A DNA stretch of 62,653 nt, counting the filler, from Collodictyon triciliatum (lineage: Eukaryota), in the NCBI GenBank assembly GCA_043381765.1. It is 13 parts of 12 records of this genome, joined end to end, with 100 filler letters (N's around TTAATTAATTAA, not from the genome) between each part and the next. Parts side by side here need not be neighbours in the genome. Positions count along the whole stretch, not along the records: positions 36,664 to 41,783 come from JBHJMP010005463.1; 12 more parts are not named here. One strand, 5' to 3'. Of the stretch, positions 3,202-62,472 are shown in pieces. Position 1 is the stretch's first letter. Every line of letters starts with the position of its first letter. A program made the translations under genes and the position numbers. A model generated the notes under the pieces. The model saw only the letters and a program-made list of their open reading frames with translations. It was not told the DNA's origin and searched no databases.

Positions 3202-6200
3202 CCTCGAAAGTGCTAAGTGACCTCCACATAGATTCTGTAAGAGAGGCGGATGTTGGTCTAATAATAAATAATAATTCCTGAGTGAAAGGTTGTAAAAAGC
3301 TTCATATTCATGTTCTTCCTTCTTTCTTTTTTTATCTTTCATTATTAATATAATTATTATTATCATCAAATGCAAACCTCGTCCATCTGGCTCCAAATTG
3401 CCTACGGGCTTCATCATCGGCGGATGCTTCATCCTGGAGTGCTACCTTACATTTATTGACCATAATCGAAGCCTATTTTCCCACAATAGTTTAAAAAAAT
3501 AATAGTGTTCATTTAACGAGGTGATTAATTATTTTTTTTAAAAAAATATGATTTTATAGTAATTTTATTTGAAAAGTAAGGAGCAATATTCACTTCTCTG
3601 GAAGACTGGGTGCGAGCCTTCTCAAGATCCTGGACTATGTGTTGTGCATTCTGAAGTGAAAACAAAAACGCATTTTTACATGGTAGTTGCAAAGAGCGAA
3701 CATATCCTTATCTTATTCACTGCGAAATAGTAGACTTTGTTTTAAAGCATGTTAAATATATATACAGGTCCTTGAACTTCGTTGATTTTGTCGCTGAGGT
3801 ACTTTGGGATCTCCTCTTTGGTGGAATACGCATCGACATATGTAGGAAGTCGATGTTCTGTCATTTTCCTTCGGGAAGTCAATAAAAATATTTAGTTTTG
3901 TAAGACTCTGTCGGAGCCAAATCAAATTAAAAATTATATACATTAACAATGAAGCAGATAGCAATTCATAAATGGAAAGCACCTTTCATATTCTTGGTCA
4001 ATCATCCCAGCCACATCCGTAAGTTTTTTCACCATGTTTCCTTTCTCTGTCTATGGTCCGCATGCAGAAAAACCGATTACATAAAGTCAGGATTGGAAAC
4101 AGTAAGGCGAGACAATTGTCTATTATTTTGCTCGGCGACTGAGGATTGGTTATGGCCAAAGCCTCACCTCATACCGAGACATGCTTTGCTGAATGACCAA
4201 CGGCACAAGTGATGAAAATAGGTCAGCTGTGGTTGGGTGCGGGGCCGTCAAGAATGGAGCAGGAGTGACCTGGTGACAAGAAATGAGTAACTGCCACACA
4301 ACAGTCCCTTATACATGGCCTTGTGAAAGCATTTATATGTAATGCAAACCTTAACCATAACCTTAGCTTCGATTGGTGCTATTTTTTCAATCGGAGGCAC
4401 GCTATCGTAGTATATAGTGTTGTTCTCCTTTTCAAGTTTTTGGAGCAGCAGTGTGACTTCCTAGTTAACGTCGTGACAGACATGCATGAGGTGGATATTC
4501 TCCTCAAACATAGTATTGCAATTCATAGTTAAATAGAAGCAGGTACTTGAACGAGATTCGCCTGAGCATGACTAATGTCTGCTGAGATTCCTGGTGATTG
4601 GCGCGTAATTTTGGAGCACTATAGAAAATGACACCATCTTGAGACATATATACAAAAGAGAATTTAAAAAGGGGTAGATATTCACCTCTTGAAGTTGATC
4701 ACTAATCAAGCGCAATCTTGATATTTGCTCCCCGATTGCAGATGTCTTTTTTTTTTAAAAAAAAAATGCGAGATGAGAAAAGGTATTTAATCAATGACCG
4801 TATATATTGCATAACATGAACTTTTCTTTAAAAAAAATTATGGCACAACAATATGTGCAATCCCCAGGTCTTAACATATGCATTATTATACAGGTGCTTC
4901 GTTTCTCATAGAAGACAAGATTCGGTAGTGTGCAAGAGCAGTGTAGTAAGCAGAGCGATGCTGTGCTTGTGAGATAAAACTCTGCATCGAGTAAATTAGC
5001 GATTAGCGACATAAATTCCGGGACATCGAAAAGAAAGGAAGGAGAGAGGAATATATTCGATTCGTAGTGTTTGTCATGTTGTTACTACCTTTTTAATATA
5101 TTCCTTTAGTTTACTTTCCATAATCGATACTGAGGCCTGATATGATGCCCTGACTATATATTCCGACAAAATGGATAACATATTTTAAAAAAAAGGGGGT
5201 CCTATTGCGAAATAAAAAATCTACAAAGTTCAGAAAATATTGGCTGGCCTTCCTTTTGGTTTTTGGAACTTCAGGATTTGTAAATTAAATCATATCTCTC
5301 GATATTTCACCTCCATAAGCAAGCTTGGCTAATATGCTGTCCTTCATTTTGTCCATAGCAGCCTGGATTATCAAAATCACATTTAATTGTCTGATTCTTT
5401 AACAAAATATAGAGGCGATCTCAATCGAGCCAGGGGAAGGTGATAAACCGAAATAAAAGGATTGCATAAGGATGAATTAACAAATTGACTGAATCGACCT
5501 TTTAGAATGAGTAAAAGAAAGAAAGAAAAGGTCGAATTTGAAAAAAAAACCTTTTCATAGAAGCATTCCTGGGCTTGGGCAAGCATCAATCCAACCAAAC
5601 ACTCAAGAAGCGGCGGTGATAAGTCCGTAGTGACAAGAGTGCCCAAGTGATTGACTGATATTTGCTTAACCTCCTCAAAATAAGCAGCGGATTGCTGGAA
5701 AAGTTGGCTGGCAGTCTTCAGCGCCTCTGGGTTCGAACGGGGTTGCGATACAGCCTTTACGCGTTGCAGATTTTGTCATGCGCACATTTGTATATTGCAA
5801 ATTATGGTCATATGCAGACAGATAATTATATAATCGTAGCGTATTTCTATCCATGGCCTATCCATGCGTGAAACGGAAGAGATAATGAGAGAAACCTGAC
5901 AGCAAGCAATCACACCGAGATTATACAAAATTGACGCCGTCTCTAGATGAGGATTTGCTGAATCTGCAGGTTATAGGCCTGTCAGTATTGCCAAGAAAAA
6001 CTATGGAAAAGAGCCACTTGGAAAAAGCCCGGATTAGAAAATGAAGGCCAGACTGAGTACTAGTCTAACTAAAAGAAGGATAGATGAAACAAGAAAACTC
6101 TAACCTGTGTAGCGGTTTGTTTGGAACGGATCGTACCATCTGGTGTCGAAATCCAACTGGAGCAGCAGTAAAACCCAAGAGTTGGAAAAGTATGTATTAC

Positions 6201-15534: not shown

Positions 15535-16999
15535 TAAATTGTCCGACAAGTCCAAGTTTTCTATCCAAGTCATATTCAGCAGACACTCAGGGACCTCAGT
15601 TAACTGAATCGACATATATTAGTGAGCAAAAAAACTGTAAAGGGCGCGGAAAATAAACATCATAGATTCCGATGTTCCCAAAAAGAAGAAAAGAGTGGCG
15701 AGAAAGATATAAGAAAGGCTGTACCCATGAACGAACCTTGTTATTATTTATGTTTAAGGTCCTAAGGTTTACCAAAAGAGAGAACGCAGCCGGTAGGGAG
15801 GAAATCTAGATAAAGTAGATTCGTTCATATTTATAATGTACTGTGGTTAGGCGTTTCTTCTAGTTATATTATTATCATTATTACACTTATTAGACGCTTT
15901 GCTGATATTACAATGTCAAAATATCAATGAAATATGAAGCTTGCCTGATTACTGGATATGTCCAGGAGAGAGAAGTTTTCCCAAGCATCAATTAAATGAG
16001 TCACTGATGTTAAACCTTCTCCCACAAAAAAAGGCGGGTGGTTGTAAAGCTGAAGAGAATGTATAAATCTCTTATGGTCGTAATGCCCATACATCCAAAG
16101 GGGGAGCCTTTTGATCCCATGAGGCGCTACCCTTATACTCGGTAACCCTTGGATAGCGATATTAAGTATGGCAAGGTCCTTCAGATGGGTCATTGCTTCG
16201 GGTAACATGGTGATCTAACTCATGGAAATATAATTAAGGCAGAAAATAAAAACGTTAAGTACACAAATATGCCCAGAAAAACAAACAAACGCACAAAAAA
16301 ACTTCAAAAAAACTTTAGCATATTTCTTTCAAATAATTGTATCAAACTCTTCTAACAAAGATGAATATAAAATTTATTAAGATCAGGAACCAAACACACA
16401 CATATATATGTTAAACTGTGATAGATATCATATAAAATTCGAACCGGATTCTCCTGCAAGTCAAGCCGCGTCATTGTTGTGATGAGAGACACCTCTGCGG
16501 GTAACTCTGTGATATTATTCGAATTGATAGAGATGTACTTGATGACCGGAAGAACGCTTAGGGACACTGGAAACGAGGTAATCTTGTTATATGATAAGTC
16601 AATAGTATGCAGATTGAATAGACAGGACAAGCCTTCGTGCAGAGACGTTATATGGTTACCGGTTACTTTGAAGAATTGAAGGTTGGTTAAGGAAGAAAGG
16701 TCTTGAGGAAGAGATGATAGGTTGCTGTAGGTCAACTCGAATTGTTGCAGTTTCTTCAGTTTGAATACGTCCGATGGGATGGATGTCAGGTTGTGTCGGT
16801 TGATGCAAAGATAAGAGAGTTTTTTCAAAGATGACAATCGAACGGGCATAGCCTCCATGCGACCAGCTGGTATTTCAAGAAAAGTGCATGACTTTATATC
16901 TCCTGAGGGCCACCACACTATGGGAATGTCCACCCGCTGGTATTTGCGAGTGTACAGAAGTGCGTCCTTTGCTGTGTGTTTTGCCTGCTTATTTCCCAT
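15535..16999 (-). CDS. LRR protein with N-terminal myristoylation-like MGNKQAK (3' end uncertain)
   Basis: Exon 16999-16444 carries about 6 LRRs (LxxLxLxxNxIxxLP). Further exons at 16215-15945, about 15807-15739 (ISSLPAAFSLLVNLRTLNINNNK) and about 15603-15536 (LTEVPECLLNMTWIENLDLSDN). Confidence 0.85.
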
Positions 17000-17595
17000 G
17001 GCTGATCTCTCTGCTGTTTTTCCAGTGCGCCAGCGGTGTCCCAGTACCCTTCTTTTTCCCAAACTATTGTCCCTTGTTATTCGCGTGAGTTGTGCGGGGC
17101 CTTTGTGTAGGTTATAATCGTGTTTGTTTATATTAAGGCTCTTTTGTCACCGTCTTGTTAAACTGGTACGCTCGCAAGACGCTCAAATTGCTATTTTCGT
17201 GTGCCTGTCAAAACAGGCGCAATGTGCAGGCTCGAATAAATGTAGAGCAGAGCAAGCCTGTCACTATACAAGGCTTGCAATCCCAACATTTTATTATTCA
17301 TTTCTGTCACATTTCATTTCTTTTTCTTGTTTTCTTTTTCTTGTTTTCTTTTTCACTTTTTTTTTCTTCTGGCGTATCTTTAGGATAATTGTTTTGGTGA
17401 GACATTATTTGCAGTGACGTCTGATGTCGTCCGGATTTTTTTCATGAGTCGGAGACCCGGTGTATCTAGTTTTTACTTTGAATCAAACCAATGGCAACGG
17501 GCATATTGCCTTCAGATGCAACATTTTTTATGGTAAGCAACTATGTAGCAATACTACGACAAATTACTCGCAAATCAAAGAAAAAAAATCAAACC

Positions 17596-18587: not shown

Positions 18588-19834
18588 AAAAATAAAAATA
18601 AAATAAAATCCGCGTTGACTCCCGCACTTGCCTCTGTGCGGAATCCTCATGTGTCGCTACGTTTCTGTGTGAAACTTGAGAAGAATGACTTCAAAGGAAA
18701 GCATTCGGCTCTCGCGAAACAGTGCCCGATCCCGTTGTTTTTATCCTTGTGCGGTCGACAGAAGCGAAGAACCTGAGAAAGACGATCTCAATCTCAAAGG
18801 GCGATAAACGACGCTCGTAGGCCGAAAAGATGAAGAAGGACAGCCAGCTGAATCTGCCCCAGATCCCGGCCTCTCATCCGCTTGTTTCCATGCAGCAGCG
18901 CAATGCAGCATCAATNNNNNNNNNNNNNNNNNNNNNNNNNNNNNNNNNNNNNNNNNNNNNNNNNNNNNNNNNNNNNNNNNNNNNNNNNNNNNNNNNNNNN
19001 NNNNNNNNNNNNNNNNNNNNNNNNNNNNNNNNNNNNNNNNNNNNNNNNNNNNNNNNNNNNNNNNNNNNNNNNNNNNNNNNNNNNNNNNNNNNNNNNNNNN
19101 NNNNNNNNNNNNNNNNNNNNNNNNNNNNNNNNNNNNNNNNNNNNNNNNNNNNNNNNNNNNNNNNNNNNNNNNNNNNNNNNNNNNNNNNNNNNNNNNNNNN
19201 NNNNNNNNNNNNNNNNNNNNNNNNNNNNNNNNNNNNNNNNNNNNNNNNNNNNNNNNNNNNNNNNNNNNNNNNNNNNNNNNNNNNNNNNNNNNNNNNNNNN
19301 NNNNNNNNNNNNNNNNNNNNNNNNNNNNNNNNNNNNNNNNNNNNNNNNNNNNNNNNNNNNNNNNNNNNNNNNNNNNNNNNNNNNNNNNNNNNNNNNNNNN
19401 NNNNNNNNNNNNNNNCCTTTCCACGCCGCTGTGTCGAACAACTGAGGGAATAGTCCCAGAAGACAAAGAAAGAGGATCGATAGAACACCCCAGAACGGCC
19501 AGCAACGTTTTATTAATCTGGGATTTATACTTAATCAAGAACATACGGATCATTGTAGCTCAATTTTCTTTTCAACAAATAACAAACAATCAAAATATGT
19601 ATCTTTCATCGTATTCCAAAAATATTCGCAACTACTCTGTACATACAAACATTTGAATTTGCATTCTACAGCCAACGATTACAACTCCAACGGGCAGCAC
19701 TCTCATCCTTTTTATAATCAATCAATCACACACGAGCCATGCATTCTTCACCTGGTCATCAGTAGGAAACAGCAAGACGTTACAGTACCCGCATCACCAG
19801 ACTCCAGGACCACGGCATACGAACCCCACGCACA

Positions 19835-20701
19835 ATGAAGCGCTCCTCCCGCACCGCCAACAAAGCCAGCACAGCCGTCATAGTCGCAGCAGACACGACA
19901 CCGAACCCGCCTGCCCAGGACACCGGGATCACCAAAGGCAAAGCGAAGGCCAAAGCCAGCCTGTCGAACCCAGGCACGGACGCCAAGCACGACCCAAGCA
20001 CGAATGCCAAGGCAGAGAGCAACGAAAACCAAGCCAACTCCACCGCAGCTGCCAAGACAAGCCCGACCCAAGAGCCGACGCCCGCCAATGCCCCACCAGC
20101 AGCGTACGGACGCTACCTGCGCTTCGACGACGACGGCGTGGCCCACGTAGCGGAGCCGCTGCCCTCCGAGTTCAACTTCCGCACCTGCCGCCCGGGCAGC
20201 GCAGTGGCAGACGAACAAGGACACGGACGCCAGGACAAAGAAGAAGAAAAAGAAGAAGGAGACCAACAGACACCCGAGCAGGCCGAAGGAGAAGGAGGAG
20301 AAGAAGGAGAGGGGGAGGAAGGAGAGGCGGAGGAAGGGGAGGCGGAGGTTGAGGAGGAGGTTGAGGAGGCCCCCTTCCGCGGCGGCACACACATCAAGTT
20401 TGCGGAGGACGGGACGGTGGTGAGCGTGCGGCGGGGCGGGGCGTGTGTGCCCGCGGCGCATTGCCAGGCGCACGTCCTCTGCCTGCTGCCCTGCCCGGGC
20501 CCCGGCCTGTCGCACCTGGCACACCTGCCGCAGACCCACGCCCAGCGCCACCCGCACTTCTGGGTCGTCCCGGCTGCCTACGCCGGCCAGTCCGTCATCT
20601 GCTTCAAGTGCCAGGCCGTCGTCACCTTCCCGGCCCGCGCCGTCGCCCACACGCCCGGCCCCGACGCCCTTGTCCCGGACATGTTGAATCTGCGCCTCTG
20701 A
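19835..20701 (+). CDS. Intronless GC-rich 288-aa ORF: disordered/acidic N-terminal part, Cys/His-rich C-terminus; function unknown
   Basis: ATG-to-TGA ORF with strong GC bias at third codon positions. It has an E/G-rich tract and a C-terminal CVPAAHCQAHVLC...CFKC. Confidence 0.55.
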   Translation: MKRSSRTANKASTAVIVAADTTPNPPAQDTGITKGKAKAKASLSNPGTDAKHDPSTNAKAESNENQANSTAAAKTSPTQEPTPANAPPAAYGRYLRFDDDGVAHVAEPLPSEFNFRTCRPGSAVADEQGHGRQDKEEEKEEGDQQTPEQAEGEGGEEGEGEEGEAEEGEAEVEEEVEEAPFRGGTHIKFAEDGTVVSVRRGGACVPAAHCQAHVLCLLPCPGPGLSHLAHLPQTHAQRHPHFWVVPAAYAGQSVICFKCQAVVTFPARAVAHTPGPDALVPDMLNLRL

Positions 20702-21530
20702 CCGGCCCGCCCTCGCGCCCCCTCCCCCCTCCTCCTCCTCCTCTCAGTCTGTCCATAACGCCCCCCTCGACCCTGTCCCCAAGATAGTCCGGCCTCATCC
20801 CCATAAACCAAACGCCTCTCTCCGCCTTCGCCCCTTCTGACGAAGCATCCTGCCCCGCTGGCCCCAACCCCTCTCCGCCTTCGCATTGGCCTCTGTGCGC
20901 AACGCCCCTGTGCCTGGCAATCCCTTCATGCAACATTTCTGATGGTGTCTCTGCGGTCATCGAGGTTCGGGCTGCAGGCGGAAGGAGGCATGTGAAGGCG
21001 CCGCATGATGTCTCTGTTCCTTCCAGCGACTCTCGCCTCCTTCGCAATCGAGCAGGTGGTTATATCCCTGGCCTACCTTCCATCCCAGGCCCTTCGCCCG
21101 GCGGTGTTGTCTCCAAGTGCCCCGCCCCTCACCAGAATCCTTTTATTTAAATGCGGAAAATATTGCAATATCGTTTTTTGTTGCTCAAATAAGGTCACGT
21201 AATCTTAGATAATCCACCATATTCTAAATTAATGTACGATATCATAATTATTATTGCGCTAATGCTCGGTTGTGACCTCACTTTTGCCAAAGCTGCGTAT
21301 GTATAAACGAAAGGTAGGTAGTCTCTAATCGTTTGCTGAATCATTCCTTATTTGGATACCGTTGGTTTCCTAAAAATAAATAACGAATTATTATTATAAT
21401 CACGAGCCTGGTTATGATCATCTTTTCTTGGCGTCCATCATCGGTGTCGCCGGCTATATGGCACGCCAACCCGGACAATTCAAACCCGATCAAAGTGCTT
21501 GTTTGCACAAAAGCCGAAAAAAAAAAGAAG

Positions 21531-24631: not shown

Positions 24632-25794
24632 TAATAATAAATATAATAATAATAATAATATATATAATATAATAATAAATAATAATAANNNNNNNNNNNN
24701 NNNNNNNNNNNNNNNNNNNNNNNNNNNNNNNNNNNNNNNNNNNNNNNNNNNNNNNNNNNNNNNNNNNNNNNNNNNNNNNNNNNNNNNNNNNNNNNNNNNN
24801 NNNNNNNNNNNNNNNNNNNNNNNNNNNNNNNNNNNNNNNNNNNNNNNNNNNNNNNNNNNNNNNNNNNNNNNNNNNNNNNNNNNNNNNNNNNNNNNNNNNN
24901 NNNNNNNNNNNNNNNNNNNNNNNNNNNNNNNNNNNNNNNNNNNNNNNNNNNNNNNNNNNNNNNNNNNNNNNNNNNNNNNNNNNNNNNNNNNNNNNNNNNN
25001 NNNNNNNNNNNNNNNNNNNNNNNNNNNNNNNNNNNNNNNNNNNNNNNNNNNNNNNNNNNNNNNNNNNNNNNNNNNNNNNNNNNNNNNNNNNNNNNNNNNN
25101 NNNNNNNNNNNNNNNNNNNNNNNNNNNNNNNNNNNNNNNNNNNNNNNNNNNNNNNNNNNNNNNNNNNNNNNNNNNNNNNNNNNNNNNNNNNNNNNNNNNN
25201 NNNNNNNNNNNNNNNNNNAATAAATAATAAATAATAAATAATAAATAATAAATAATAAATAATAAATAATAAATAATAAATAATAAATAATAAAAAATAA
25301 ATAATAAATAATAGGAGCGTAAGCGGCAGGAAATGGATGAGAAATCCCGCCAGGTAGAGTACTGGAGAGTCGAGAATGACATTGCTGACCGAAACGAGGA
25401 AATGAAGAGGCGTCAACAAGTTGAAACAAATAGGGAATATGCCAAGCAATTATTAGAACAATCACGGTATTTGATACTGAAAGGCATTCAAGATATCTGT
25501 CATTCATTATGTAATACATGACTGAGATAGTATGACGATATAGTCTCACTTCCATACAAACAAAAAAGAATAGATACATAGGACAAGATAATTATCTAAT
25601 CATATAATATTGATAGGGCTGACCTTATGAGAAAGAGGGGCGAGTCAAGTCTGATATCTGATGCCGAGAGAAATATGAATAGAGCATTGATTGAGCGGTA
25701 CGGCATACGTTCTATGTCGGTTGGGCATCCACCACGAACAGAAGTTTCCACATACAGCCAAAGCTTCGGAAGTGGCGCACTTGTGTTAGCCTAG
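23866..25794 (+). CDS. E/R/K-rich coiled-coil protein C-terminal part (TPH/trichohyalin-like)
   Basis: Exons read DELRAQRELENIDERIRQNEIERLNK, ERKRQEMDEK...NREYAKQLLEQ and ISDAERNMNRALIE...LVLA*. A 530-N gap interrupts the gene. Confidence 0.65.
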
Positions 25795-27150: not shown

Positions 27151-28167
27151 ATGTCACTTCTCCGTCTGTCTGCCCTGCTGGGAAGTCGTGCCGCACTGCA
27201 AGGCTCTCAATTCGCTGCTCGATCTGCGGTCGGTCTCTTGTCCACCCTCCCAAAACCTTTCCTCCTTTACGCTAGCATCGAAGGGTTTCTTTCTTTGCCT
27301 GCGTGTATACCAAACCCACAAGCCGTGGGGAAATAATACTGTTCAAATGAGATATAGTCATAACCATACTCTCAACATAATTCACTTCGCGCTCTATACT
27401 GATGTACAGACCCCCACGCAAATGTCCAGGTTTTTGGGACAACGCCAGCGCGTCTATTCTGGAGCAATAGCTCGGACAACAAGCAGAAGACAGAGGAAGG
27501 GCACAAGAAGAGTGGGACTGCAGAGCCTGCAACCGAGGAAACACAACAGGAAGCAGCAAATAACAATCCCAACACCAACACAAGCACGCACGAGAACTCA
27601 GACTCCGGGGCAAACGCCAATGGCGAGCATGAGACAGCTGGCGAGGCACCCACAGAAAAGGAGCTGCAGCTGATGGAGCAAAACAAGCGCCTGAAAGAGC
27701 GACTTCTCTACGCACATGCAGAGATGGAAAACACGCGCCGCCGTGCTCAGTTAGACGTGGAGAATGAGCGCACATATGGCATCGGCAAGTTTGGCAAGTC
27801 GCTGCTCGACGTAGCTGACAGCCTTTCCTTGGCCCTCAAGCACTCGCCATCAGGCGCAGACGTCTCTAAAGTCCCGCCAGCTGACCTTCAGAACCAGCTG
27901 AATCAGCTTCACGAGGGTGTGGTCATGACAGAGAAGCAGCTGCACAAGGTCCTTTCTCAGCACGGCATCAAGCGCTTCGACTCCAAGCTCAAGAAGTTTG
28001 ACCCGGCCTACCATTCTGCCCTCTTTGAAATCCCGTCTGTTGCGACAAGCACTTTGCCCAACGGTCCGTACGAGGCAGGCACGGTTGTCGAGGTCTTGAA
28101 GGAGGGCTTCACCATTGGCGACCGCATCCTGCGCCCTGCTGAGGTTGGTGTGGTTCGCAAGGACTGA
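27151..28167 (+). CDS. grpE: Mitochondrial GrpE nucleotide-exchange factor (one intron, about 27233-27409)
   Basis: Presequence-like MSLLRLSALLGSRAAL. GrpE motifs AEMENTRRR, KFGKSLLDVADSL, FDPAYHSALF and GFTIGDRILRPAEVGV. Confidence 0.95.
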
Positions 28168-31335: not shown

Positions 31336-31547
31336 CCTCTCACNNNNNNNNNNNNNNNNNNNNNNNNNNNNNNNNNNNNNNNNNNNNTTAATTAATTAAN
31401 NNNNNNNNNNNNNNNNNNNNNNNNNNNNNNNNNNNNNNNNNNNTTTGTTTGTTTGTTTGTTTGTTTGTTTGTTTGTTTGTTTGTTTGTTTGTTTGTTTGT
31501 TTGTTTGTTTGTTTGTTTGTTTGTTTGTTTGTTTGTTTGTTAAACAG

Positions 31548-35925
<4,378 letters not shown>

Positions 35926-36451
35926 GAATAAAGACCGGAGCATCTCTCTCCACCCTTTTTCCAGAGATGGATTCATTTTCATGACGTCACTAAATTACCG
36001 ATTCAGCCACAACAACCACACTGTGGTTTCGATGTCGATTTCCCTTATGCGTCCCCGCAACAACCACAACTGGTATAAACTAGGCCTGTGAATTTTCCCA
36101 TTCCCGTCGCGAGTCGCACTTGGTCATGCGCGGCCTAATTCAAAGGCACAATAGCCTCGTAACACGTTGGAAGCACCAATCACGCCGCTGGACATACCTG
36201 TCTCAAAGGGGCTTTGACAAGAACCAGTCACAAGGCTGCCTCTATCAGACGCAGAGTTCTCTCCGTCGAGAAAGCGAAGCAGATAACGACGCAAAAGAAA
36301 TACCACTACGAACCGCAACTTGAGCATATTTTCTTCTTTTCCTTTCTCTACCTTGTGTCTAACAGCACGACTAATCCTGTGTTTTGTTTTGTTTTGTTTT
36401 GTTTTGTTTTGTTTTGTTTTGTTTTGTTTTGTTTTGTTTTGTTTTGTTTTG

Positions 36452-36482
<31 letters not shown>

Positions 36483-36663
36483 TTTATGTTTTGTTATGTT
36501 TTGTTATGTTTTGTTATGTTTTGTTATGTTTTGTTATGTTTTGTTATGTTTTGTATTGTATTANNNNNNNNNNNNNNNNNNNNNNNNNNNNNNNNNNNNN
36601 NNNNNNNTTAATTAATTAANNNNNNNNNNNNNNNNNNNNNNNNNNNNNNNNNNNNNNNNNNNN

Positions 36664-36757
<94 letters not shown>

Positions 36758-37073
36758 GGAAACAAAAAAATGACGTATCGAGCTCAAGCCGTCAACCCAC
36801 GGGTAGCAAGATAATAATGATTATAGTGCTCGGAATTAGTTTCTCAGAGTCACTCCGGTTTTTTTATTTTTTATTTTTCCTTTTCTCATTCCCTTTGCGA
36901 ATCACGGGTGCACTTGCTGGTCACTTATAAAAAACTTTGTGTATTTGTTTGCCACAATGTGCACATTTTGAAAGTCTCGGTAGATGCTTAATTTTACCTG
37001 AAATGATATTATGCAGGTGTTATATATATTTAAACTGACTAATTGACTAAAGTTTTATTAAATTAAAAAATAA

Positions 37074-39038
37074 GTAGTTTCCGAAAGGAAAAAGTAAAAC
37101 AAAGACTTTCAGGTGAAGAAGAGAAAGCGCCTTGAGTTTGAGAATCTAAAGTCTGTAAAACCAGACTATTGAAATGTGAAAACATCTCTGAAGTCGATTG
37201 TAAAGAATGCAAATGACTATGACAAAATCGACGATACGGCTTTATTGTGTCATAATTTGGTTACCGACACTTATCTGTTTCCAAGGTGTTACATATTGAA
37301 ATCCCAAATCCCAAAAATCGATGAAAAGTTTTTTGTACGCTTTAAAGACAATCAGAGTAGTTTCACAAGATAGACTCGCAATATTTTTAAAAAAACCAGG
37401 TTTGAGAGAAGACATGATGACTTTTTATCTCAATGATTTTCGATTCTTTTTGTCCCAAGAAAAACGCATTCCGTTGGTTGGACTGTCTCATGTATCACCG
37501 TACTTGGTGAAGCAAATGTTAACATCTTATCATAATAACATTAAGGAACATTTTGTTAAGAGGTTACTGCGCTTTATAAATCAAACAGTCCCTAAAGATG
37601 AGAATATTACATAAGCTATTAAAAAAAGCAGAGTTACGAAAATTAAAAAAGGCCATCTTCAAGAAACTCAAAATACCAGAACAATATAAAGAGTGGGCTT
37701 GAATGCTTTTGCATCGTATCATTCCCAGCCACATTGTAAAAGCTATCGAATATGACGCCAAATTCAATCCAAATAAGTACACTCCATGTCTGATTTACAT
37801 GAGTCGCATTTTTGAGGACATTGAACACAAACTGTTTCAACGAATCCCTATAAGAACTGCCAATATACCATGTTATATTTCTCTAAATACCGCATGTCTG
37901 ATAGATATGTTAGTATCAACTGGAAAACATTATTACTGAAGAATATATCATGATGCAAAGATACCTATGGGATAATTTCTATGCAATAAAGAGAGAGTCT
38001 TTCATCAAAGAGACTACATTTTTAAATACATGATACAAACAGACGGCTAGGCGGTGTCATTATTGTTTGAAAAGAAAGGTATTTCAAATTCAAATCCAAT
38101 TTAATCAAAAAATCCAAGATTATGTTTATATGGATGAACTTTCCGAAGAGCAGCTATCTTTATTAGAGACGAAAAATACAGCTGGAGTGGATGCAGGCAA
38201 GTTTAATTTGGTTTCCATGGTGGATGAGACAGGTAAGAAATTACGTTACACGATACACCAAAGAAGACGTGATAGTAAATCTCTTAAAAATCACAAAATA
38301 CTCTTGCGCGAGAAAAAAGAAAAGTACAATGCTTCAGGGATATGCATGGCAACAGATTTACAAAGTGCTATTTCTTTTGGTCCCTTGACTTTTGAAGAGA
38401 ATCAGCGGTTTGGGTTATTAAGAATATCTTTAATCGATTTAGAGACAAAACTGAGTAAATATAATTCATGCACCGTCGATTATGAAAAATTTCGAAAATG
38501 TATATCTATGAAATCAAGAAACCAGATAGAATTATCCAGATTTTATGAACAAGTAACTTTTCGAAAGATGATATGGAGACAGTATGTTAATACAAAAAGA
38601 AGTGAAGAATTGTTTATGGACCGAATCGAAATGACTTTTGGGCAATGATGTTATACTGGCGTATGGAGACTGGAGCAGAAAATGTCCGATGAAACATTTT
38701 ACGCCAACAATCGGAAGAGGATTACGAAAAATACTATTCAAAAGTTTTGAAACCGTATTGTAAATGAATTTAGAACCTCCAAGATATGATGCATCTGCGA
38801 AAAAGAACTAGAATACATGAAACCGAAGGGAAATTCAAAAAAGGTGTATGGATGTCTCATATGTAAAGAATAAAATCGCTTAGAAAGCAATCAAGGCGCA
38901 TTTTCGACAATGGACTTTAACAGCGCTAAAAATATACTCAAGAAAGTTCTTTTAATCCTTCAAAATATGCATATATCTCCTCTAAAATATATCGTCGGGC
39001 CTCTCCTGGCAGCCATCACCACTACACAACCTTTGTGA
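37074..39038 (+). pseudogene. Fanzor1 (eukaryotic TnpB-like RNA-guided RuvC nuclease), inactivated by stops and frameshifts
   Basis: Reconstruction gives VKTSLKSIVKN...TYLF, MLTSYHNNIKEHF, IQTDG (38033-47) and RuvC-I GVDAG (D at 38190). It continues with ETKLSKYNS..VDYEKF, FRKMIWRQY, LAYGDWS (38656-76) and PTIGRGLRK. RuvC-II NEFRTSK (E at 38766), a decayed zinc ribbon (*CIC...CKE*) and RuvC-III MDFNSAKNI (D at 38913) follow. No obvious spliceosomal intron is required. Confidence 0.9.
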
Positions 39039-39196
39039 AAAAAGTAGTGAGACCTTTGATGCTAGCGCACCAGGTTTACCAATCTTTCTATCGGTATACC
39101 TCTCTTAGTCTATACTATAAAAAACAAGACTGATTAGTTTGTCAGTTACCGATTCAGGTTACAAAATTGATGGCTTTTTTTTTTCAAATGGTTCGG
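39011..39196 (+). ncRNA. Candidate Fanzor omegaRNA scaffold
   Basis: Overlaps the Fanzor 3' end. Nested complementarities are AGCCATCA/TGATGGCT, CACTAC/GTAGTG, ATCGGTA/TACCGAT and ACTGA/TCAGT. Confidence 0.6.
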
Positions 39197-40300
39197 AAAG
39201 CCTTATTAAAACAAAAATAAAGAGAAAGGCGTGCGCAAGAATTTCTTTTCGAGTCAAGCCTGTGCTTCATACAAATATTCTCATATTTAAATTGTTGCTT
39301 GTCAATCAAGAATGTAATTCCCACAAAGAAAATGAATCACATCCAGATATTGAGCGCTAAGGATATCATTAGTTCACACTGCCACAGAAATGGATGCTCC
39401 CTTCACATTTCAACAGGCCGCTGGTTGCGTGCGATTGGATGCATTCTCACTGGCCAAAGCAAATGGGTTGTTTTGATTGCTGGTGAATAATATGTTTGTG
39501 CATTTCGCCGACAAGACAATCAAACGACGATTTTCGTCCAGAGCTTTTCGCCAGAAAGAGCAGCACAAGCCTAAAAGACTGAAACGGCAATTATTTCCAC
39601 AATTTCATTCGAATCGCTTTCTTGTTTCATACTGTCTCATAGAAATTCAGAGTACATTATTATGATAGTATATGTAATTTTGTGCTAATTATGTTTATTA
39701 ATTTAAAACAGGAACTCACATTTTTAAAAAATTATGTAATTATAATATAATTTCCACATACATATGAATGTTCCAGATACGTTTCAAGCGAACATCCAAA
39801 TTTGGCGCAGGAACATTCGCTTAATAAGTTCCTCTTTCGGAAAACTGAAAGAGAAAAAACAAACAAAGGAGGGCGGAGAATGCGTTGTGTGCTTTTGGTT
39901 GTGGGAATCGCAGGAAGGATTGGGAATCTCGCAGCGCAAGCAGAGCGATATGTTGTGCATTGGGAATGTCGCGACGTTGCAAGCGCCAGGCAAAGAGTCA
40001 AGTCCAACAGAGCAGGAAGGAATGCCTTTTTTTCTTTTCAGCTGCGCAAAGTTGAATGCCTTTCGTCTCTTCTGTTGCGGTAGACGGCACAAAACCTTCC
40101 TGCGCCTGGGTTTGTTCAATTGCTTTGCCTCGAGACTGCATGAATACGGAGCCCGTCAAAATCACATCACATCTGACTCGCTTATAGAAGAAAAATATAT
40201 TATTGGGGAGTGATGTGACAGAGAACTACTCGGCGGTTTGGGCGAGTGACCCACGGAAAGCTTATCATGAAGCTACCTGGCACGCTTTCAAAGATTATCC

Positions 40301-41741
40301 ATGACTGACTCTTTCCACGATTTTCCCAGAAAGCCTAGTCTAGCACAGAGAAAATCACTTAGAAAAGAAATCACAGAAAAGCGACAATCAAAGGGAATCA
40401 AAGGCAAATCGTAAAGAAAAGTGCTGCGATGAGTTGGCCCACCATGTTTGCTCTGTCACCAATCACCATTTGGACGTGCTTCCTATTGATCTACTCCTCT
40501 CTAGGTCAACATTTATGTTTCAGATTTATGTGTTTTAATCTCCATCCTACATACATGAGCATGACCATCCATTATTGTGAACGACCAAACCAATGATTCA
40601 ATAATAATTGCATACTCAAAGACGCTGTGAGCTTAGACTGGATTCAAGCAGATTCGCAGCCCCCTGCAATCATCCATGGCTCTGTTGCATCCAACTCAAC
40701 ACACATTTACTTGTTTGGGAGGATACCGTAGCGATGCAAAGCTCTCATCTTCTAGTGTGGAATTCACAGACATGGACCTTATTTATCTTTTGAGAGATAC
40801 TAATGCAGGTTACTCACCTTCAAGAATCAAAGGAAAAAAAAAGGGAGACCCATCGCCTTATTCATCCAAAATGTTTCTCTCATATAAAAATAATCACCCA
40901 GTTTTCTCCTTTTAAAAAATTACTCAAAATAAAAGCCACATTCAGCTGGGAGTTGATTCGAGCATCCGGAGACATTCCTTCAAAAAGATACGGAGCCTGT
41001 GCAGTCCTCACTAACAACAAGTTTGTATACAATTAAATACCTACAATTACTTACACAGAGCCAATAATGATATTGAAATGAAAAAATAAACACCAGTATG
41101 AATGAATTCGATATATACTGGCGCATTAGAATGTTTCGGTTGGGAAGTACTCATACAAAATTGTTGATTAAAGGATATATCTTTACGGAGGATTCAACAA
41201 GAATGGCAAGGGAGACCTTTTTACATTCATTCTTCATCTTGGTTCGAGGTTAGCCAATATGTGCAAGATGCACGATTGAGAGTTTTACTTCTTTTTTTAT
41301 AAAAAATATTCATTATATAGTATATGGACTCGGATTTCTATCTCTGGGCCGAGCAGTTCCGTTCCATCAAATAGAATGGGCCATGCGTGCATAGCAAATG
41401 GCACTTCCATTTACATGACTTCTGGATGGCTAGAGAAGAGCTTGGCAGACGGTTCGCAGATTTCGACGGAAACGTGGAGATTCTCAACAAGTTTATACTA
41501 AATGCCATATAGACAATAATGAACACATTATGCATAAATCATCTAGTTTTTCATGAAATTTTAATAAAAAAATTGTGGCATGACACAAAAGTAACGAACG
41601 AGTGGAGTCTGATTCAGCAAAATGGGCCATCGTCATTGGGGAGATACCACTTTTCATCTTTCGTTTACAACAGCAAGTGGAGAATTATGATGGGTACAAC
41701 TGGACAAGAATTACCTCTGCAAATTTTAGATTTTGACTTCG
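40301..41741 (+). CDS. Kelch-repeat protein (3' truncated; one apparent frameshift)
   Basis: Kelch segments HIYLFG(G)Y, GDIPSKRYGACAV...IYLYGGF, PSNRMGHACIANGTSIYMTSGW and GRYHFSSFVYN. Confidence 0.8.
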
Positions 41742-42033
41742 GTAAGTTCGATGAGTGCTTCATTTCCAAATCATAAAATGAAANNNNNNNNNNNNNNNNN
41801 NNNNNNNNNNNNNNNNNNNNNNNNNNNTTAATTAATTAANNNNNNNNNNNNNNNNNNNNNNNNNNNNNNNNNNNNNNNNNNNNGCTGCTTCTTTTTTATT
41901 CTTTTTTTATTCTTTTTATTCTTTTTACTCTTTTTATTCTTTTTATTCTTTTTATTCTTTTTATTCTTTTTATTCTTTTTATTCTTTTTATTCTTTTTAT
42001 TCTTTTTATTCTTTTTATTCATTATATTTACAG

Positions 42034-60504: not shown

Positions 60505-62472
60505 GGGCTATGAGATGTCAGAGTGTACGCATGACAACATAAGAATATCATCAAGATGGAATCGATTATTCATTGAACTGAATAAAGAGAAGAAAAAATA
60601 TGGAATTCATCATTGGAGATCGCCTTCGAGAATGAAATAAAGAGGAAAAATACTTCGAGATGAGATATGATAGTAATTTGGTCCCAGATATTGTTAAAAA
60701 CCTTTGTTACAAATAGATTGGACTTTGTTGGATGAGGAGGCTGGAACACTATTTCCTCCCTTCGCAAATTTTTTATTTAAATAATTGTTCACCTCACGAA
60801 AGAAATGCACTGAAAGACTGATTTCAGTGATTACAAGGATGTTGGACATTCAACGATGTAAGTCTTTAAGAAATTTAACCATGAGGATTTATAAGGAATT
60901 CAATCAAAGGAAATAATACTCTTTCAGTGCCGTCAGGATTCCTACTACGAATGACTTGTTTTCAAGAAAAGTGTAATTGGATTAATACTGTCGTACAATT
61001 CATATTAAACCATGTTGGCTGAGTATTGTAGTTTGTATGAACTTTGAATGTAAACCTCTATCTTAGCACCGTGCTCAACTCCCATCGCTTTGACCTATTC
61101 AGAATATTCATATATGATGTTAATATTCAGACTATACTTATTTTATTAATACACGTCGATTGAGGTTGAATATATTTCTACATCCTCATGACTTAGTAGC
61201 GTTGGAGATAATCCAGTCGCCAGATTCCTGTGAAAAAATATTTTTGAGAAATAAATTATGGAGCGAGATATCTAATATCTGTATATCCATGATTGGCTTA
61301 TTTTCTTATTTGTCTCCTTTTTTATCTATTTTCTGTTTTCTAGTGTCTTGAGATGAATGCATGAATATTTGATTTACTTTCGTTACTTTCCCTTTGAATC
61401 GAAAGAAAGCGAGCATGTTGGTTCATGTACATTAGTTTTATTTCTGTCATTTTCCATTACCAATATTTATTAAATCACTCACGTGACCATCGATATAGCC
61501 AATACTTCGACGCCCAAACTCGAGGCGGCAATAACTTCTGGTATAGTTGACATACCGAAAGCGTGGCCACCTATAGTGATATAAAATAATTCGAGGGCAC
61601 TATCATCATGAATCTTTTTCACTTTTGTGGTGAAAGGACTAAGGAAATTATAAATGAAACAACTGCTGTTTGTAAATGAAGAGCAAATCATATAAGAATA
61701 AATTGATTTCCACTCGATACCCATTTTCATGGCAGCTTTCACTTCACAAGAGGTTTCATAGGTCGGTCCAGTAGTCCAACAATATGTACCTAAGAGTTGA
61801 AGAATTTTTAAATTGGAAAAGGAGGAGAGAAAGGGGATATGGGGAGAGTGGTTCCTTAGATGTTGCTCTTTGGTCTATTTTTTTGCTTGTTATGAGTGGT
61901 TTGTGTCATTTTTGTTGTTTGCTTATTACTCTTACTTTTTTTATTATACTTTTACTAATACTCTGCATTTACTCTGCATTTACTCTGCATTTACTCTGCA
62001 TTTACTCTGCATTTACTCTGCATTTACTCTGCATTTGCATTTGCATTTGCATTTTAATATTTACTTTGAGTATCATATGCATGTACGTAATATAAATGAG
62101 AATTTACCATCGAATATCCTTAATCCCTTTTCCTTAGCAACTTCATGGGCGATCCTACATATCCTCTCACTATTTGGATATTTAAAGAAAATATAAAGAT
62201 TAAGATTTTGACAAAGATGATAATGAATATAATTATAGAGTTAAGGTCAAAATCAAAGGAAAAAAGTGGATGTTACAAATACATAAAGAGAAATTGCTGA
62301 GACTATGTCATATCGTTCATAATTGTGAAGAGAACTAAACCTGGCTTCGATTATGTACATCATTTATAGTTAAGTATTCATTTTAAGTTTTTAGCTGATC
62401 AAATATTACTTACCTATAAGAAATAGAAGAATCTACGACACGTGAACCGAGGCGACTGTCTTGAAAAGAATC
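57710..62472 (-). CDS. Purine nucleoside phosphorylase (PNP/MTAP fold) with additional divergent PNP-like repeats; partial
   Basis: First domain GTYCWTTGPTYETSCE, GMSTIPEVIAA and AISMVT|NLATG...LSHEDV. Second domain IKDIPHMP, HGRLFIG, FVLAATA|G...KVGDVVVVGD and LPGPSLESRGE. Confidence 0.85.

What the first reader, a model, noticed from the sequence alone, without database searches (positions are those of the whole stretch)
37074..39038. Decayed Fanzor1 RNA-guided nuclease locus in a protist genome
Seen: across at least six frameshifts and several stops, the segment spells a protein of roughly 600 aa with the ordered motifs IQTDG, GVDAG, YGDWS, NEFRTSK, a zinc ribbon and MDFNSAKNI. All three RuvC catalytic codons (D 38190, E 38766, D 38913) survive. 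Established: this motif order characterises Fanzor1, the eukaryotic TnpB homolog that cuts DNA using an omegaRNA guide. Inference: the lack of obvious introns, the AT-richness and the N-terminal KTSLKSIV...TY(L/Q)F style recall giant-virus-associated Fanzors. The lineage may therefore carry an undescribed Fanzor family, with intact copies elsewhere in the genome. The ORF track splits it into five or more unrelated-looking pieces, so automated annotation would likely miss it.
Basis: partly seen in the sequence, partly recalled or inferred. Interest (0 to 1): 0.88.

Follow-up and report, generated by a model that had tools for sequence, protein, structure and literature searches.

The report
Decayed Fanzor1 transposon copy, eukaryotic contig
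This is a broken, non-functional copy of a Fanzor1 gene, an RNA-guided DNA cutter carried by jumping genes; it is one of many worn copies, its closest intact relatives sit in giant viruses, and it is an ordinary relic of a known family.

Summary
Window 37113-39026 (+) reads collinearly onto an intact 648-aa protein, P0157, with 378 of 636 aligned codons identical. P0157 matches only solved Fanzor1 structures by sequence (E 2e-28 to 4e-23). Its model's best seven fold matches are Fanzor1.

The window copy is dead:
- its start codon is GTG;
- it has 8 frameshifts and 6 in-frame stops;
- the first zinc-finger cysteine is TGA;
- DPG has become DAG, and RD has become MD.

The three RuvC codons (38190, 38766, 38913) survive. 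They align with the SpuFz1 metal ligands D383, E541 and D606.

It is one copy of a family. In one public run, 349 contigs 80-99% alike cover 36929-39111. The copy belongs to a subfamily with a 34-residue insertion. That subfamily is sister to Fanzor1 genes of Tc1/mariner-type two-gene transposons on giant-virus contigs.

The window is a chain of unlinked ~5.1-kb assembly pieces, so only 36664-41783 is real context.

Still open: host lineage, transposon ends, guide RNA, and whether intact copies exist in the same genome.

Verdict: a new member of a known kind, of modest interest.

The parts
36926..36935 (.). TATAAAAAAC, left copy of a 10-bp direct repeat. It is a candidate target-site duplication or target preference, not established.
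   Evidence: This was the only exact direct repeat of 10 bp between 36780-37000 and 39000-39160. I estimate about 0.1-0.3 such matches by chance in AT-rich DNA. The leftmost diverged copies begin at 36925-36929 (table 8, records 9 and 25).
36936..37112 (+). 5' non-coding part of the repeated unit, upstream of the lost start codon.
   Evidence: Covered by diverged contigs of runs X10, X1, X2 and X4 (tables 2 and 8). X10 record 9 (419 nt) fits 36929-37202 with 278 of its letters and then runs on unlike the window.
37113..39026 (+). Fanzor1 pseudogene: 8 frameshifts, 6 in-frame stops, start codon GTG.
   Evidence: Frameshift-aware alignments to P0157 (378/636) and P0004 (261/586). tblastn results.
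37113..37115 (+). GTG where the intact relatives have the initiator Met. It is followed by KKRKR, a basic, NLS-like stretch.
   Evidence: N-terminal NLSs in Fanzors are reported in PMC10530073 (passages read).
38190..38192 (+). RuvC-I aspartate codon (GAT), in GVDAGK. The family signature DPG reads DAG here.
   Evidence: It aligns to P0004 D372, which equals SpuFz1 D383 (PMC10432273). D and P are invariant in A4.
38325..38441 (+). Subfamily-specific insertion: 39 residues where viral P0004 has 6.
   Evidence: There are 34 gap columns in P0004, P0014, P0017 and P0029. The insertion is present in full in the window, P0003, P0005, P0007, P0009 and P0011, and in P0010 and P0039 as far as those fragments reach, and in P0157. 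In the P0157 model the stretch is low-confidence (pLDDT under 50 at 416-437).
38766..38768 (+). RuvC-II glutamate codon (GAA), six residues before the zinc finger.
   Evidence: It aligns to P0004 E530, which equals SpuFz1 E541. The six-residue spacing is a Fanzor feature according to PMC13565253 (passages read).
38787..38873 (+). Zinc-ribbon region. The first Cys ligand is TGA (38787). CIC and CLIC are kept. The codon at 38871 is TAA opposite Cys.
   Evidence: At 38872 every other copy laid reads G, giving TGA: 14 of 14 X10 contigs, 1 of 1 in X2 and 1 of 1 in X4 (table 3).
38913..38915 (+). RuvC-III aspartate codon (GAC), in MDFNSAKNI. The conserved RD reads MD here.
   Evidence: It aligns to P0004 D581, which equals SpuFz1 D606.
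39027..39115 (+). 3' tail of the repeated unit. This is where a Fanzor1 guide (omega) RNA scaffold would be expected, but none was demonstrated.
   Evidence: Diverged copies cover the sequence up to about 39111. Folding of 38930-39125 is no better than shuffles (z -0.36).
39116..39125 (.). TATAAAAAAC, right copy of the 10-bp direct repeat.
40794..41776 (+). Three open pieces with weak Kelch-repeat likeness on the same assembly piece. This may be a split host gene.
   Evidence: Pfam E-values of 2e-4 to 0.03, all below the curated cut-offs. Suggestive only.

Best explanation
The segment is a dead copy of a Fanzor1 gene. It probably makes up almost all of a transposase-less mobile element of about 2.2 kb that exists in many diverged copies in a eukaryotic genome.

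The ancestral gene encoded a ~648-aa RNA-guided RuvC nuclease like P0157. From what is established for Fanzor1 and TnpB, I infer that such a protein binds an RNA transcribed from the element's 3' end. That RNA runs into the flanking DNA and so provides a guide. The protein recognises a short AT-rich TAM, cuts matching DNA, and thereby helps the element persist by cutting empty sites and being re-copied into them.

This copy can do none of that. It has lost its start codon, carries 8 frameshifts and 6 stops, and has lost the first zinc ligand and two signature residues next to the catalytic aspartates. The surviving D/E/D codons show only that the decay is incomplete.

The subfamily is marked by a 34-residue insertion. 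It is sister to Fanzor1 genes that ride Tc1/mariner-type two-gene transposons in giant viruses, so exchange between such viruses and the host lineage is likely. The direction of exchange is unknown.

Shown here: homology, breakage, the existence of many variants, and the viral sister clade.
Inferred: the unit's ends, mobilisation in trans, the guide RNA, and the virus-host transfer.
For: Homology:
- Piece 38034-38648 finds 416 proteins at E<=1e-3 and 66 at E<=1e-10 among 1.84 billion.
- P0157 is 59% identical over 91% of that piece.

Fanzor1 identity of the intact relatives:
- At E<=0.01, all 3 PDB sequence matches of P0004 are Fanzor1: SpuFz1 9e-37, PpFz1 7e-34, GtFz1 7e-16.
- The same holds for all 3 matches of P0157.
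- The P0157 model has pLDDT 86.3 and pTM 0.85.
- Its best 7 Foldseek matches are Fanzor1 chains (E 2e-26 to 5e-22, TM 0.61-0.80). The next best is Cas12X at 9e-7, and mimivirus Fanzor2 scores 8e-5.
- Directly, the read-through piece P0001 hits PpFz1 at E 0.005. Three of its 6 matches at E<=10 are Fanzor1.

Breakage.

The breaks are mutations, not a feature of how the gene is read:
- The stops lie opposite R, R, L, C and C of an ordinary open reading frame.
- Other copies carry a T after 38755: 3 X10 contigs (43.4 of 54.6 depth), plus 1 of 1 contig each in X2 and X4. That T removes the 38757 shift.
- Two X10 contigs carry AA after 38091 (54 of 191.8 depth). That removes the 38091 shift (table 4).
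- Gap-free contigs at least 99% alike repeat the window's sequence across three shift regions: X2 record 22 (38572-38722), X1 record 4 (37621-37813) and X1 record 5 (37889-38042) (table 8).

Many copies:
- 349 X10 contigs were laid. Of these, 16 are at least 99% alike, 55 are 95-99%, 163 are 90-95% and 115 are under 90%.
- Up to 14 different contigs overlap at one position.
- 14 joints, all seen in X10 contigs alone, skip 42-231 bases.
- Short database ORFs 66-83% identical to the window run into the window's off-frames (P0032, P0039).

Viral kin:
- Five IMG/VR loci encode intact relatives.
- In L001-L004 the gene lies in a ~3.35-kb unit. That unit also carries a DDE_3/HTH_28 transposase and ~50-bp inverted ends.
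- In the tree, window+P0010+P0003 have SH-aLRT 97. They are sister (94) to P0008+L002+P0004+L001 (99). All sit in an 18-row clade (98) that also holds L005.
Against: - No terminal inverted repeats were found.
- No transposase remnant was found.
- The only end signal is a 10-bp AT-rich direct repeat that could be chance.
- The extent of the repeated unit rests on what the contigs cover. Contigs cannot prove where a repeat stops.
- Run X10's kind (RNA or DNA) and its organism are unknown to me. Depth is not copy number.
- X1 may be the sample the window was assembled from.
- No guide-RNA structure was detected.
- The tree is a 'quick' search. The sister branch is not starred (94). Only 3 of its 76 rows (L001, L002, L005) come from known viral contigs. 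Among the unlabelled rows, P0004 is 88% identical to the L001 gene. 21 rows have odd composition.
- Some of the 8 frameshifts lie in homopolymer runs and could be assembly errors.
- No intact copy was shown in the same genome.
Confidence: 0.9

Rival explanations
1. The Fanzor relic is part of an integrated giant-virus fragment, or the contig is viral or contaminant DNA. On this reading it is not a dispersed transposon copy of a eukaryotic genome.
For: The closest full-length relatives of known origin are on giant-virus contigs. Bao and Jurka describe Fanzor1 elements in virus-derived insertions in Ectocarpus and Hydra contigs (PMC3627910, passages read).
Against: None of the 7 ORFs scanned in the remaining 2.7 kb of the assembly piece matches a viral protein family. 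Three of them show weak Kelch-like open pieces broken up as if by introns. The diverged copies cover about 2.2 kb around the gene. Hundreds of variants 80-95% alike are typical of an old genomic repeat, not of a virus. Scans of IMG/VR with P0010, with piece D and with P0157 found no member of this subfamily; this is weak evidence because the scans use exact 8-residue words.
Confidence: 0.06
2. The gene is intact in the organism, and the breaks are sequencing or assembly errors.
For: Several shifts lie in runs of T or A (37330, 38091). The assembly is fragmented into ~5-kb pieces with gaps.
Against: Six nonsense codons, the GTG start, and the DAG and MD substitutions are base changes, not run-length errors. 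Contigs from other runs reproduce the window's sequence without gaps across three shift regions (table 8), though X1 may be the source sample.
Confidence: 0.02
3. The gene is functional but is read unconventionally. Either TGA is read as Cys (as in Euplotes) or all stops are reassigned, together with programmed frameshifting at stop codons.
For: Two TGA/TAA codons sit exactly at zinc-finger Cys positions. All other copies laid read TGA at 38871. One frame change (37612) lies near a TAA.
Against: The intact relative P0157 is an ordinary ORF with Cys at those places. The other TGAs lie opposite Arg, where CGA to TGA is one step, and the TAG lies opposite Leu. Two shifts are undone by simple indels in other copies. 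Other pieces of the assembly carry long conventional ORFs, for example a complete GrpE domain in a 254-codon frame. No start codon remains.
Confidence: 0.02

Closest known systems
Fanzor1 RNA-guided nucleases with solved structures (Spizellomyces punctatus SpuFz1 8GKH, Parasitella parasitica PpFz1 9CF0, Guillardia theta GtFz1 9CER)
   Same: The domain order and fold are the same, shown through the intact relative P0157 (TM 0.61-0.80). The D/E/D triad is aligned. The Glu lies six residues before the zinc finger. The size is about 640 aa. No introns are present.
   Different: Only 18-20% identity to P0157 in the structural alignments. There is a 34-residue insertion after the first RuvC strands. 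The window copy itself is a pseudogene.
Tc1/mariner-type two-gene elements with Fanzor1 in giant viruses (PGv-1, PUl-1 and relatives, PMC3627910; here loci L001-L004)
   Same: These are the nearest full-length relatives of known origin. The window is 44.5% identical to P0004 and P0157 is 45% identical to it. They form the sister clade in the tree.
   Different: The window element has no DDE_3 transposase remnant. It has no ends resembling their ~50-bp inverted repeats. It also carries the insertion they lack.
Fanzor1-only non-autonomous elements (PUl-4 with mariner ends, PMC3627910; the ascovirus SfAV element, bioRxiv 10.1101/2023.08.09.552727; Spu-1 of S. punctatus with 42 full or partial loci, PMC10432273)
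   Same: It is a short unit consisting essentially of one Fanzor1 gene. It occurs in many copies, some of them partial or decayed.
   Different: Those elements have defined inverted ends and short TSDs (TA or TTAN). No ends could be defined here. The only candidate is a 10-bp direct repeat.
Prokaryotic TnpB of IS200/IS605 and IS607, and Fanzor2
   Same: The RuvC-plus-zinc-ribbon core and the RNA-guided mechanism are shared, by homology.
   Different: Structural likeness of P0157 to them is much weaker: ISDra2 TnpB 8H1J at E 1e-3 and mimivirus Fanzor2 9B0L at E 8e-5, with TM 0.2-0.3. No TnpA is nearby.

Membership tests
Fanzor1 (by descent) | Full-length sequence homology to Fanzor1 proteins rather than to Fanzor2, TnpB or Cas12 | tested here: met
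   The window aligns collinearly to P0157 (378/636) and P0004 (261/586). At E<=0.01 those two proteins hit only Fanzor1 chains in the PDB, 3 of 3 each. The top 7 fold matches are Fanzor1. Directly, P0001 hits PpFz1 at E 0.005.
Fanzor1 (by descent) | RuvC catalytic triad D...E...D aligned with the metal ligands of a solved Fanzor1 | tested here: met
   Window codons 38190, 38766 and 38913 correspond to P0004 D372, E530 and D581. These correspond to 8GKH chain residues 777, 935 and 1000, which are SpuFz1 D383, E541 and D606.
Fanzor1 (functional gene) | Bao-Jurka motif D-X(125,275)-[TS][TS]-X-X-C4 zinc finger-X(5,50)-RD (PMC3627910) | tested here: not met
   The motif is met by P0157, P0159 and P0004. 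The window read-through fails it: the first Cys is TGA and RD reads MD. I therefore file the window copy as a relic of a Fanzor1 gene, not as a working Fanzor1.
Fanzor1 (functional gene) | DPG signature at RuvC-I and Glu six residues before [CH]xxC (bioRxiv 10.1101/2023.08.09.552727; PMC13565253) | tested here: not met
   The spacing E-x6-zinc finger is kept, but DPG reads DAG and the [CH] position is a stop. The pattern matches only when relaxed.
Fanzor1 (functional gene) | One open reading frame with a start codon | tested here: not met
   GTG at 37113, 8 frameshifts and 6 stops.
Fanzor1 (functional system) | Structured guide (omega) RNA encoded at the 3' end, reaching past the right end | tested here: inconclusive
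   Folding of 38930-39125 gives z -0.36. No Rfam match was found in the window. No DNA of other copies was available for a covariation test.
Fanzor1 (functional system) | RNA-guided, TAM-dependent DNA cleavage | not testable with these tools
   This needs biochemistry with an intact relative.
Tc1/mariner-Fanzor1 two-gene element of giant viruses | Adjacent DDE (DDE_3/IS630-type) transposase | tested here: not met
   tblastn of the L001 transposase against the whole window gives no hit at E<=0.01.
Tc1/mariner-Fanzor1 two-gene element of giant viruses | Inverted terminal repeats like those of the viral elements, flanked by TA | tested here: not met
   No inverted repeat was found between the two end regions. 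There is no significant likeness to the L001 end sequence (best local score 20).
Dispersed repeat / transposable element family | Multiple diverged copies with different flanks | tested here: met
   349 contigs of run X10, 80-99% alike, were laid, with up to 14 at one position. 109 of them fit the stretch only in part. Record 9 runs on unlike the window left of 36929. No whole genome was available to count loci.

The most novel reading that the evidence does not exclude
A Fanzor1 subfamily not yet described is marked by a 34-residue insertion in the helical region after RuvC-I. Its intact 648-aa form is P0157/P0159. It crossed between mimivirus-like giant viruses and a freshwater eukaryote, shed its Tc1/mariner transposase, and then multiplied as a 2.2-kb nuclease-only element. 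It kept multiplying after the nuclease had died. Every other copy laid at 38872 (14 X10 contigs, one each in X2 and X4) shows TGA at a zinc-finger Cys codon, and most of the X10 depth at 38091 lacks the AA that would undo that 2-base shift. If so, spread of the element did not need its own Fanzor.
Probability: 0.3. Interest if true: 0.45.

Novelty: new member of a known kind. Interest (0 to 1): 0.25.

Why it matters
Fanzor1 genes, their presence in protists and giant viruses, their multi-copy state and their partial or decayed copies are all already in print (PMC3627910, PMC10432273, PMC10530073; passages read). One more dead copy therefore changes little.

Three things have modest value:
- The locus points to a high-copy Fanzor1-only element family in an aquatic eukaryote, with an intact 648-aa relative that could be tested as an editor.
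- Its sister relation to giant-virus elements adds a case for virus-host traffic of these nucleases.
- Breaks shared among copies would, if confirmed on a full genome, bear on whether Fanzor is needed in cis for spread of its element.

The locus also shows that ORF- and Pfam-based annotation misses such relics.

Tried and rejected
Dead ends and uninformative steps:
- No whole genome is held, so copies could not be counted or a family alignment built.
- The word-based protein search with P0001 ('longer') found nothing. The search with piece D ('near') also found nothing at E<=1e-5.
- PDB sequence searches with piece D (best Fanzor hit E 2) and with P0002 (no hit) were not significant.
- IMG/VR scans with P0010, piece D and P0157 found no relative.
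- The metagenome scan with P0010 found none. The scan with P0157 found only a 21%-identical locus, L006.
- No tRNA was found and no Rfam family.
- RNA folds of the two ends were unremarkable (z -0.36 and -1.21).
- The sigma-70 promoter/terminator scan is irrelevant for a eukaryote and showed nothing of use.
- No other copy exists within the window.
- No inverted ends were found, and no DDE_3 remnant.

Sequencing runs:
- No RNA holder is listed. X10 is only guessed to be RNA, so nothing can be said about expression.
- None of the four runs laid covers 39112-39951, and cover beyond that is scattered and thin.

Ideas considered and dropped:
- TGA read as Cys, or frameshifting at stop codons, was considered because of TGA at two Cys positions and a TAA near one frame change. 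It was dropped after the alignment to the ordinary ORF P0157 and the indel variants in other copies.
- Context from GrpE, LRR, CSC1-like, BRO1 and PNP genes was dropped once the window proved to be unlinked pieces.
- The GrpE Atlas look-up gave only 'eukaryotic' and no lineage.
- Look-ups of earlier findings by place and by sequence were empty.

Supplementary tables of the Fanzor papers, which list host taxa, were not seen. They may already list this lineage.
Full report
WHAT THE WINDOW IS.
The window is not one stretch of chromosome. It consists of 13 pieces, 10 of the 11 complete ones about 5.12 kb long, joined by linkers of 44 N + TTAATTAATTAA + 44 N. The finding lies on piece 36664-41783, and only that piece is real context. 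The GrpE, LRR, CSC1-like, BRO1 and PNP genes I first took as neighbours lie on other pieces. No whole genome is held.

THE OBSERVATION.
The codons at 38190 (GAT), 38766 (GAA) and 38913 (GAC) are as stated.

Taken alone, the pieces are almost invisible to profile searches:
- Of the 6 open pieces, one gave OrfB_IS605 at 18.2 bits, below the 30.5 cut-off.
- The two read-through pieces gave no relevant Pfam hit.
- Against the PDB, the 204-aa piece was not significant.
- The read-through of 37580-38065 hit Parasitella Fanzor1 at E 0.005, and 3 of its 6 listed matches were Fanzor1.

HOMOLOGY.
An exhaustive HMMER search with the 204-aa open piece (38034-38648) found 416 proteins at E<=1e-3 and 66 at E<=1e-10. 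Many of these are 600-780 aa long.

P0004 (634 aa, intact):
- It matches SpuFz1 at 9e-37 over residues 14-607, PpFz1 at 7e-34 and GtFz1 at 7e-16. Nothing else in the PDB matches at E<=0.01.
- tblastn of P0004 on the window gives four collinear pieces in frames 3, 1, 2, 3, with sum E 2e-76.

P0157 (648 aa, intact):
- A word-based search for longer proteins then found P0157, which is 59% identical to the piece. It has a twin, P0159; both lie on ~2.6-kb contigs.
- P0157 again matches only the three Fanzor1 structures.
- Its AlphaFold model has pLDDT 86.3 and pTM 0.85. The best seven Foldseek matches are Fanzor1 chains (E 2e-26 to 5e-22).
- Cas12X follows at 9e-7, mimivirus Fanzor2 at 8e-5 and ISDra2 TnpB at 1e-3.

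HOW BROKEN THE COPY IS.
I wrote a protein-to-DNA aligner that allows frame changes. Against P0157 it covers 37113-39026 and residues 1-642, with 378 of 636 codons identical and only 5+6 gap columns, so there are no introns. The breaks are:
- 8 frame changes, at 37330, 37643, 37933, 37950, 37982, 38091, 38647 and 38757.
- 6 stops: TGA 37170 and TGA 37700 opposite Arg, TAG 38048 opposite Leu, TGA 38787 and TAA 38871 opposite Cys, and TAA 37612 as an extra codon.
- GTG at the position of the initiator Met.

Against P0004 the figures are 261/586 identical, 8 shifts and 6 stops.

The metal ligands of SpuFz1 are D383, E541 and D606 (PMC10432273, passages read). Counting in the printed alignment, these are chain residues 777, 935 and 1000. 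They pair with P0004 D372, E530 and D581, and those pair with the window's three surviving codons.

Other signature residues are gone. DPG reads DAG, the first zinc ligand is TGA, and RD reads MD. The motif of Bao and Jurka (PMC3627910) and the DPG...E-x6-[CH]xxC...RD pattern of the 2023 bioRxiv paper (10.1101/2023.08.09.552727) are met by P0157, P0159 and P0004. The window read-through does not meet them.

DECAY, NOT AN ODD CODE OR ASSEMBLY ERRORS.
TGA at two Cys positions made me consider a TGA=Cys code and frameshifting at stops. I dropped the idea for these reasons:
- P0157 is an ordinary ORF with Cys at those places.
- The other stops lie opposite Arg and Leu, each one base change away.
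- When public runs were laid on the piece, other copies carried simple indels that undo two of the shifts:
  - a T after 38755, in 3 X10 contigs and in the single X2 and X4 contigs there;
  - AA after 38091, in 2 X10 contigs.
- Gap-free contigs at least 99% alike from runs X1 and X2 reproduce the window across three shift regions. X1 may be the source sample.

A FAMILY OF COPIES.
In run X10 (coded 'organism A', kind only guessed), 349 contigs lie on 36929-39111. Of these, 16 are at least 99% alike, 55 are 95-99%, 163 are 90-95% and 115 are below 90%. Up to 14 contigs overlap at one position, and there are 14 internal-deletion joints, all in X10 contigs.

Runs X1 and X2, labelled aquatic and freshwater metagenome and from two studies, hold 3 and 2 contigs at least 99% alike.

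Short database ORFs 66-83% identical to the window (P0006, P0009, P0011, P0032, P0039) share its insertion. P0032 and P0039 run on into the window's off-frames, as decayed paralogues would.

At 38872 all other copies read G, so the codon is TGA in them too. Most of the X10 depth at 38091 lacks the AA. Some breaks may therefore predate the amplification.

What the contigs cover suggests a unit of about 2.2 kb, made up of the gene, ~180 bp upstream and ~90 bp downstream. It is flanked by the only 10-bp direct repeat between the two end regions, TATAAAAAAC at 36926 and 39116. That repeat could be chance, and missing cover beyond 39111 proves nothing.

No inverted ends were found. No transposase remnant was found. 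No convincing RNA fold was found.

The rest of the piece carries three weak Kelch-like open pieces. These hint at a split eukaryotic gene.

RELATIVES.
P0004's nearest Atlas clusters are 92-100% Nucleocytoviricota and carry PF26935. Five IMG/VR loci encode intact relatives. One lies on a 254-kb giant-virus MAG contig. Their neighbours include ribonucleotide reductase, DUF5755, MutS_V and a DEAD helicase.

In L001-L004 the gene forms a ~3.35-kb unit with a divergent DDE_3/HTH_28 transposase and ~50-bp inverted ends. This is the architecture published for PGv-1-type elements (PMC3627910).

I built a 76-row tree (quick IQ-TREE search, SH-aLRT support). The rows were:
- 67 of the full-length representatives of 560-800 aa, leaving out the two P0004 cluster mates P0153 and P0154;
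- four fragments;
- three viral loci, L001, L002 and L005; I left out L003 and L004 because their gene gave tblastn results identical to L002's;
- the window read-through.

The tree puts window+P0010+P0003 together (97). They are sister (94) to P0008+L002+P0004+L001 (99). All lie inside a clade of 18 rows (98) that also holds L005.

The window's subfamily carries a 34-residue insertion that P0004, P0014, P0017 and P0029 lack. In the P0157 model this stretch is a low-confidence loop between helices that follow the first RuvC strands.

COMPARISON WITH WHAT IS KNOWN.
The following are all already published:
- Fanzor1 in protists, fungi, arthropods, plants and giant viruses (PMC10432273).
- Up to 122 copies per genome (PMC10530073).
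- Nuclease-only non-autonomous elements (PMC3627910; the SfAV element in the 2023 bioRxiv paper).
- Partial copies in S. punctatus (PMC10432273).

I read passages of these papers, not their supplements.

A search for papers holding both 'Fanzor' and 'Apicomplexa' gave one unrelated paper. Since the host lineage is unknown, I make no claim of a first for any lineage.

VERDICT.
The object is a dead member, by descent, of a known mobile-gene family. Its kin are giant-virus elements, and an intact relative is available for testing.

Noticed in passing
whole window; linkers at e.g. 36564-36663 and 41784-41883: The window is a chain of 13 assembly pieces, 10 of the 11 complete ones about 5.12 kb long, joined by N44 + TTAATTAATTAA + N44 linkers. 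Two further gaps of 500 and 530 N lie at 18916-19415 and 24689-25218. Gene neighbourhood across linkers is meaningless.
   Followed up: yes
window 27403-28167 (+), 16352-17146 (-), 31396-33428 (+), 5383-5775 (-), 61479-61874 (-): Other pieces carry ordinary eukaryotic genes: a complete GrpE domain (E 1.5e-41), an LRR protein, CSC1/OSCA-like RSN1_TM and PHM7_cyt exons, BRO1 and a PNP_UDP_1 fragment. They use conventional long ORFs. The lineage was not determined.
   Followed up: partly
window 36348-36560, 36664-36756 and many piece ends: Piece ends are rich in microsatellites: (TTTGTTTTGT/TTTGTTATGT)n, (TAA)n, (CTTT)n and (ATAC)n. This probably explains why the assembly breaks there.
   Followed up: no
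window 19650-21150: A GC-rich stretch (0.55, against about 0.34 elsewhere) has long overlapping open frames on both strands and Glu/Gly/Arg-rich low-complexity coding.
   Followed up: no
window 38871-38873, in copies in runs X10, X2 and X4: All other copies laid read TGA where the window has TAA, at a zinc-finger Cys codon. This nonsense codon seems ancestral to the sampled copies (table 3).
   Followed up: partly
L001 4620-7970; L002-L004 4625-7970: The giant-virus relatives form a ~3.35-kb two-gene unit (DDE_3 transposase on the minus strand, Fanzor1 on the plus strand) with ~50-bp inverted ends. A GC-rich hairpin (GCGCCGA...TCGGCG) lies just after the Fanzor stop and next to the right end, which is a likely guide-RNA stem.
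   Followed up: partly
protein P0008: A 378-aa Fanzor1 fragment is named '6-pyruvoyl-tetrahydropterin synthase' by its source. This looks like a mis-annotation.
   Followed up: no
window 36978-37077: One X10 contig skips 98 bases with GT..AG ends in the element's 5' region (depth 5, table 5). It could be a deletion variant or a spliced leader intron. A single contig at the 80% likeness setting is too weak to interpret.
   Followed up: no
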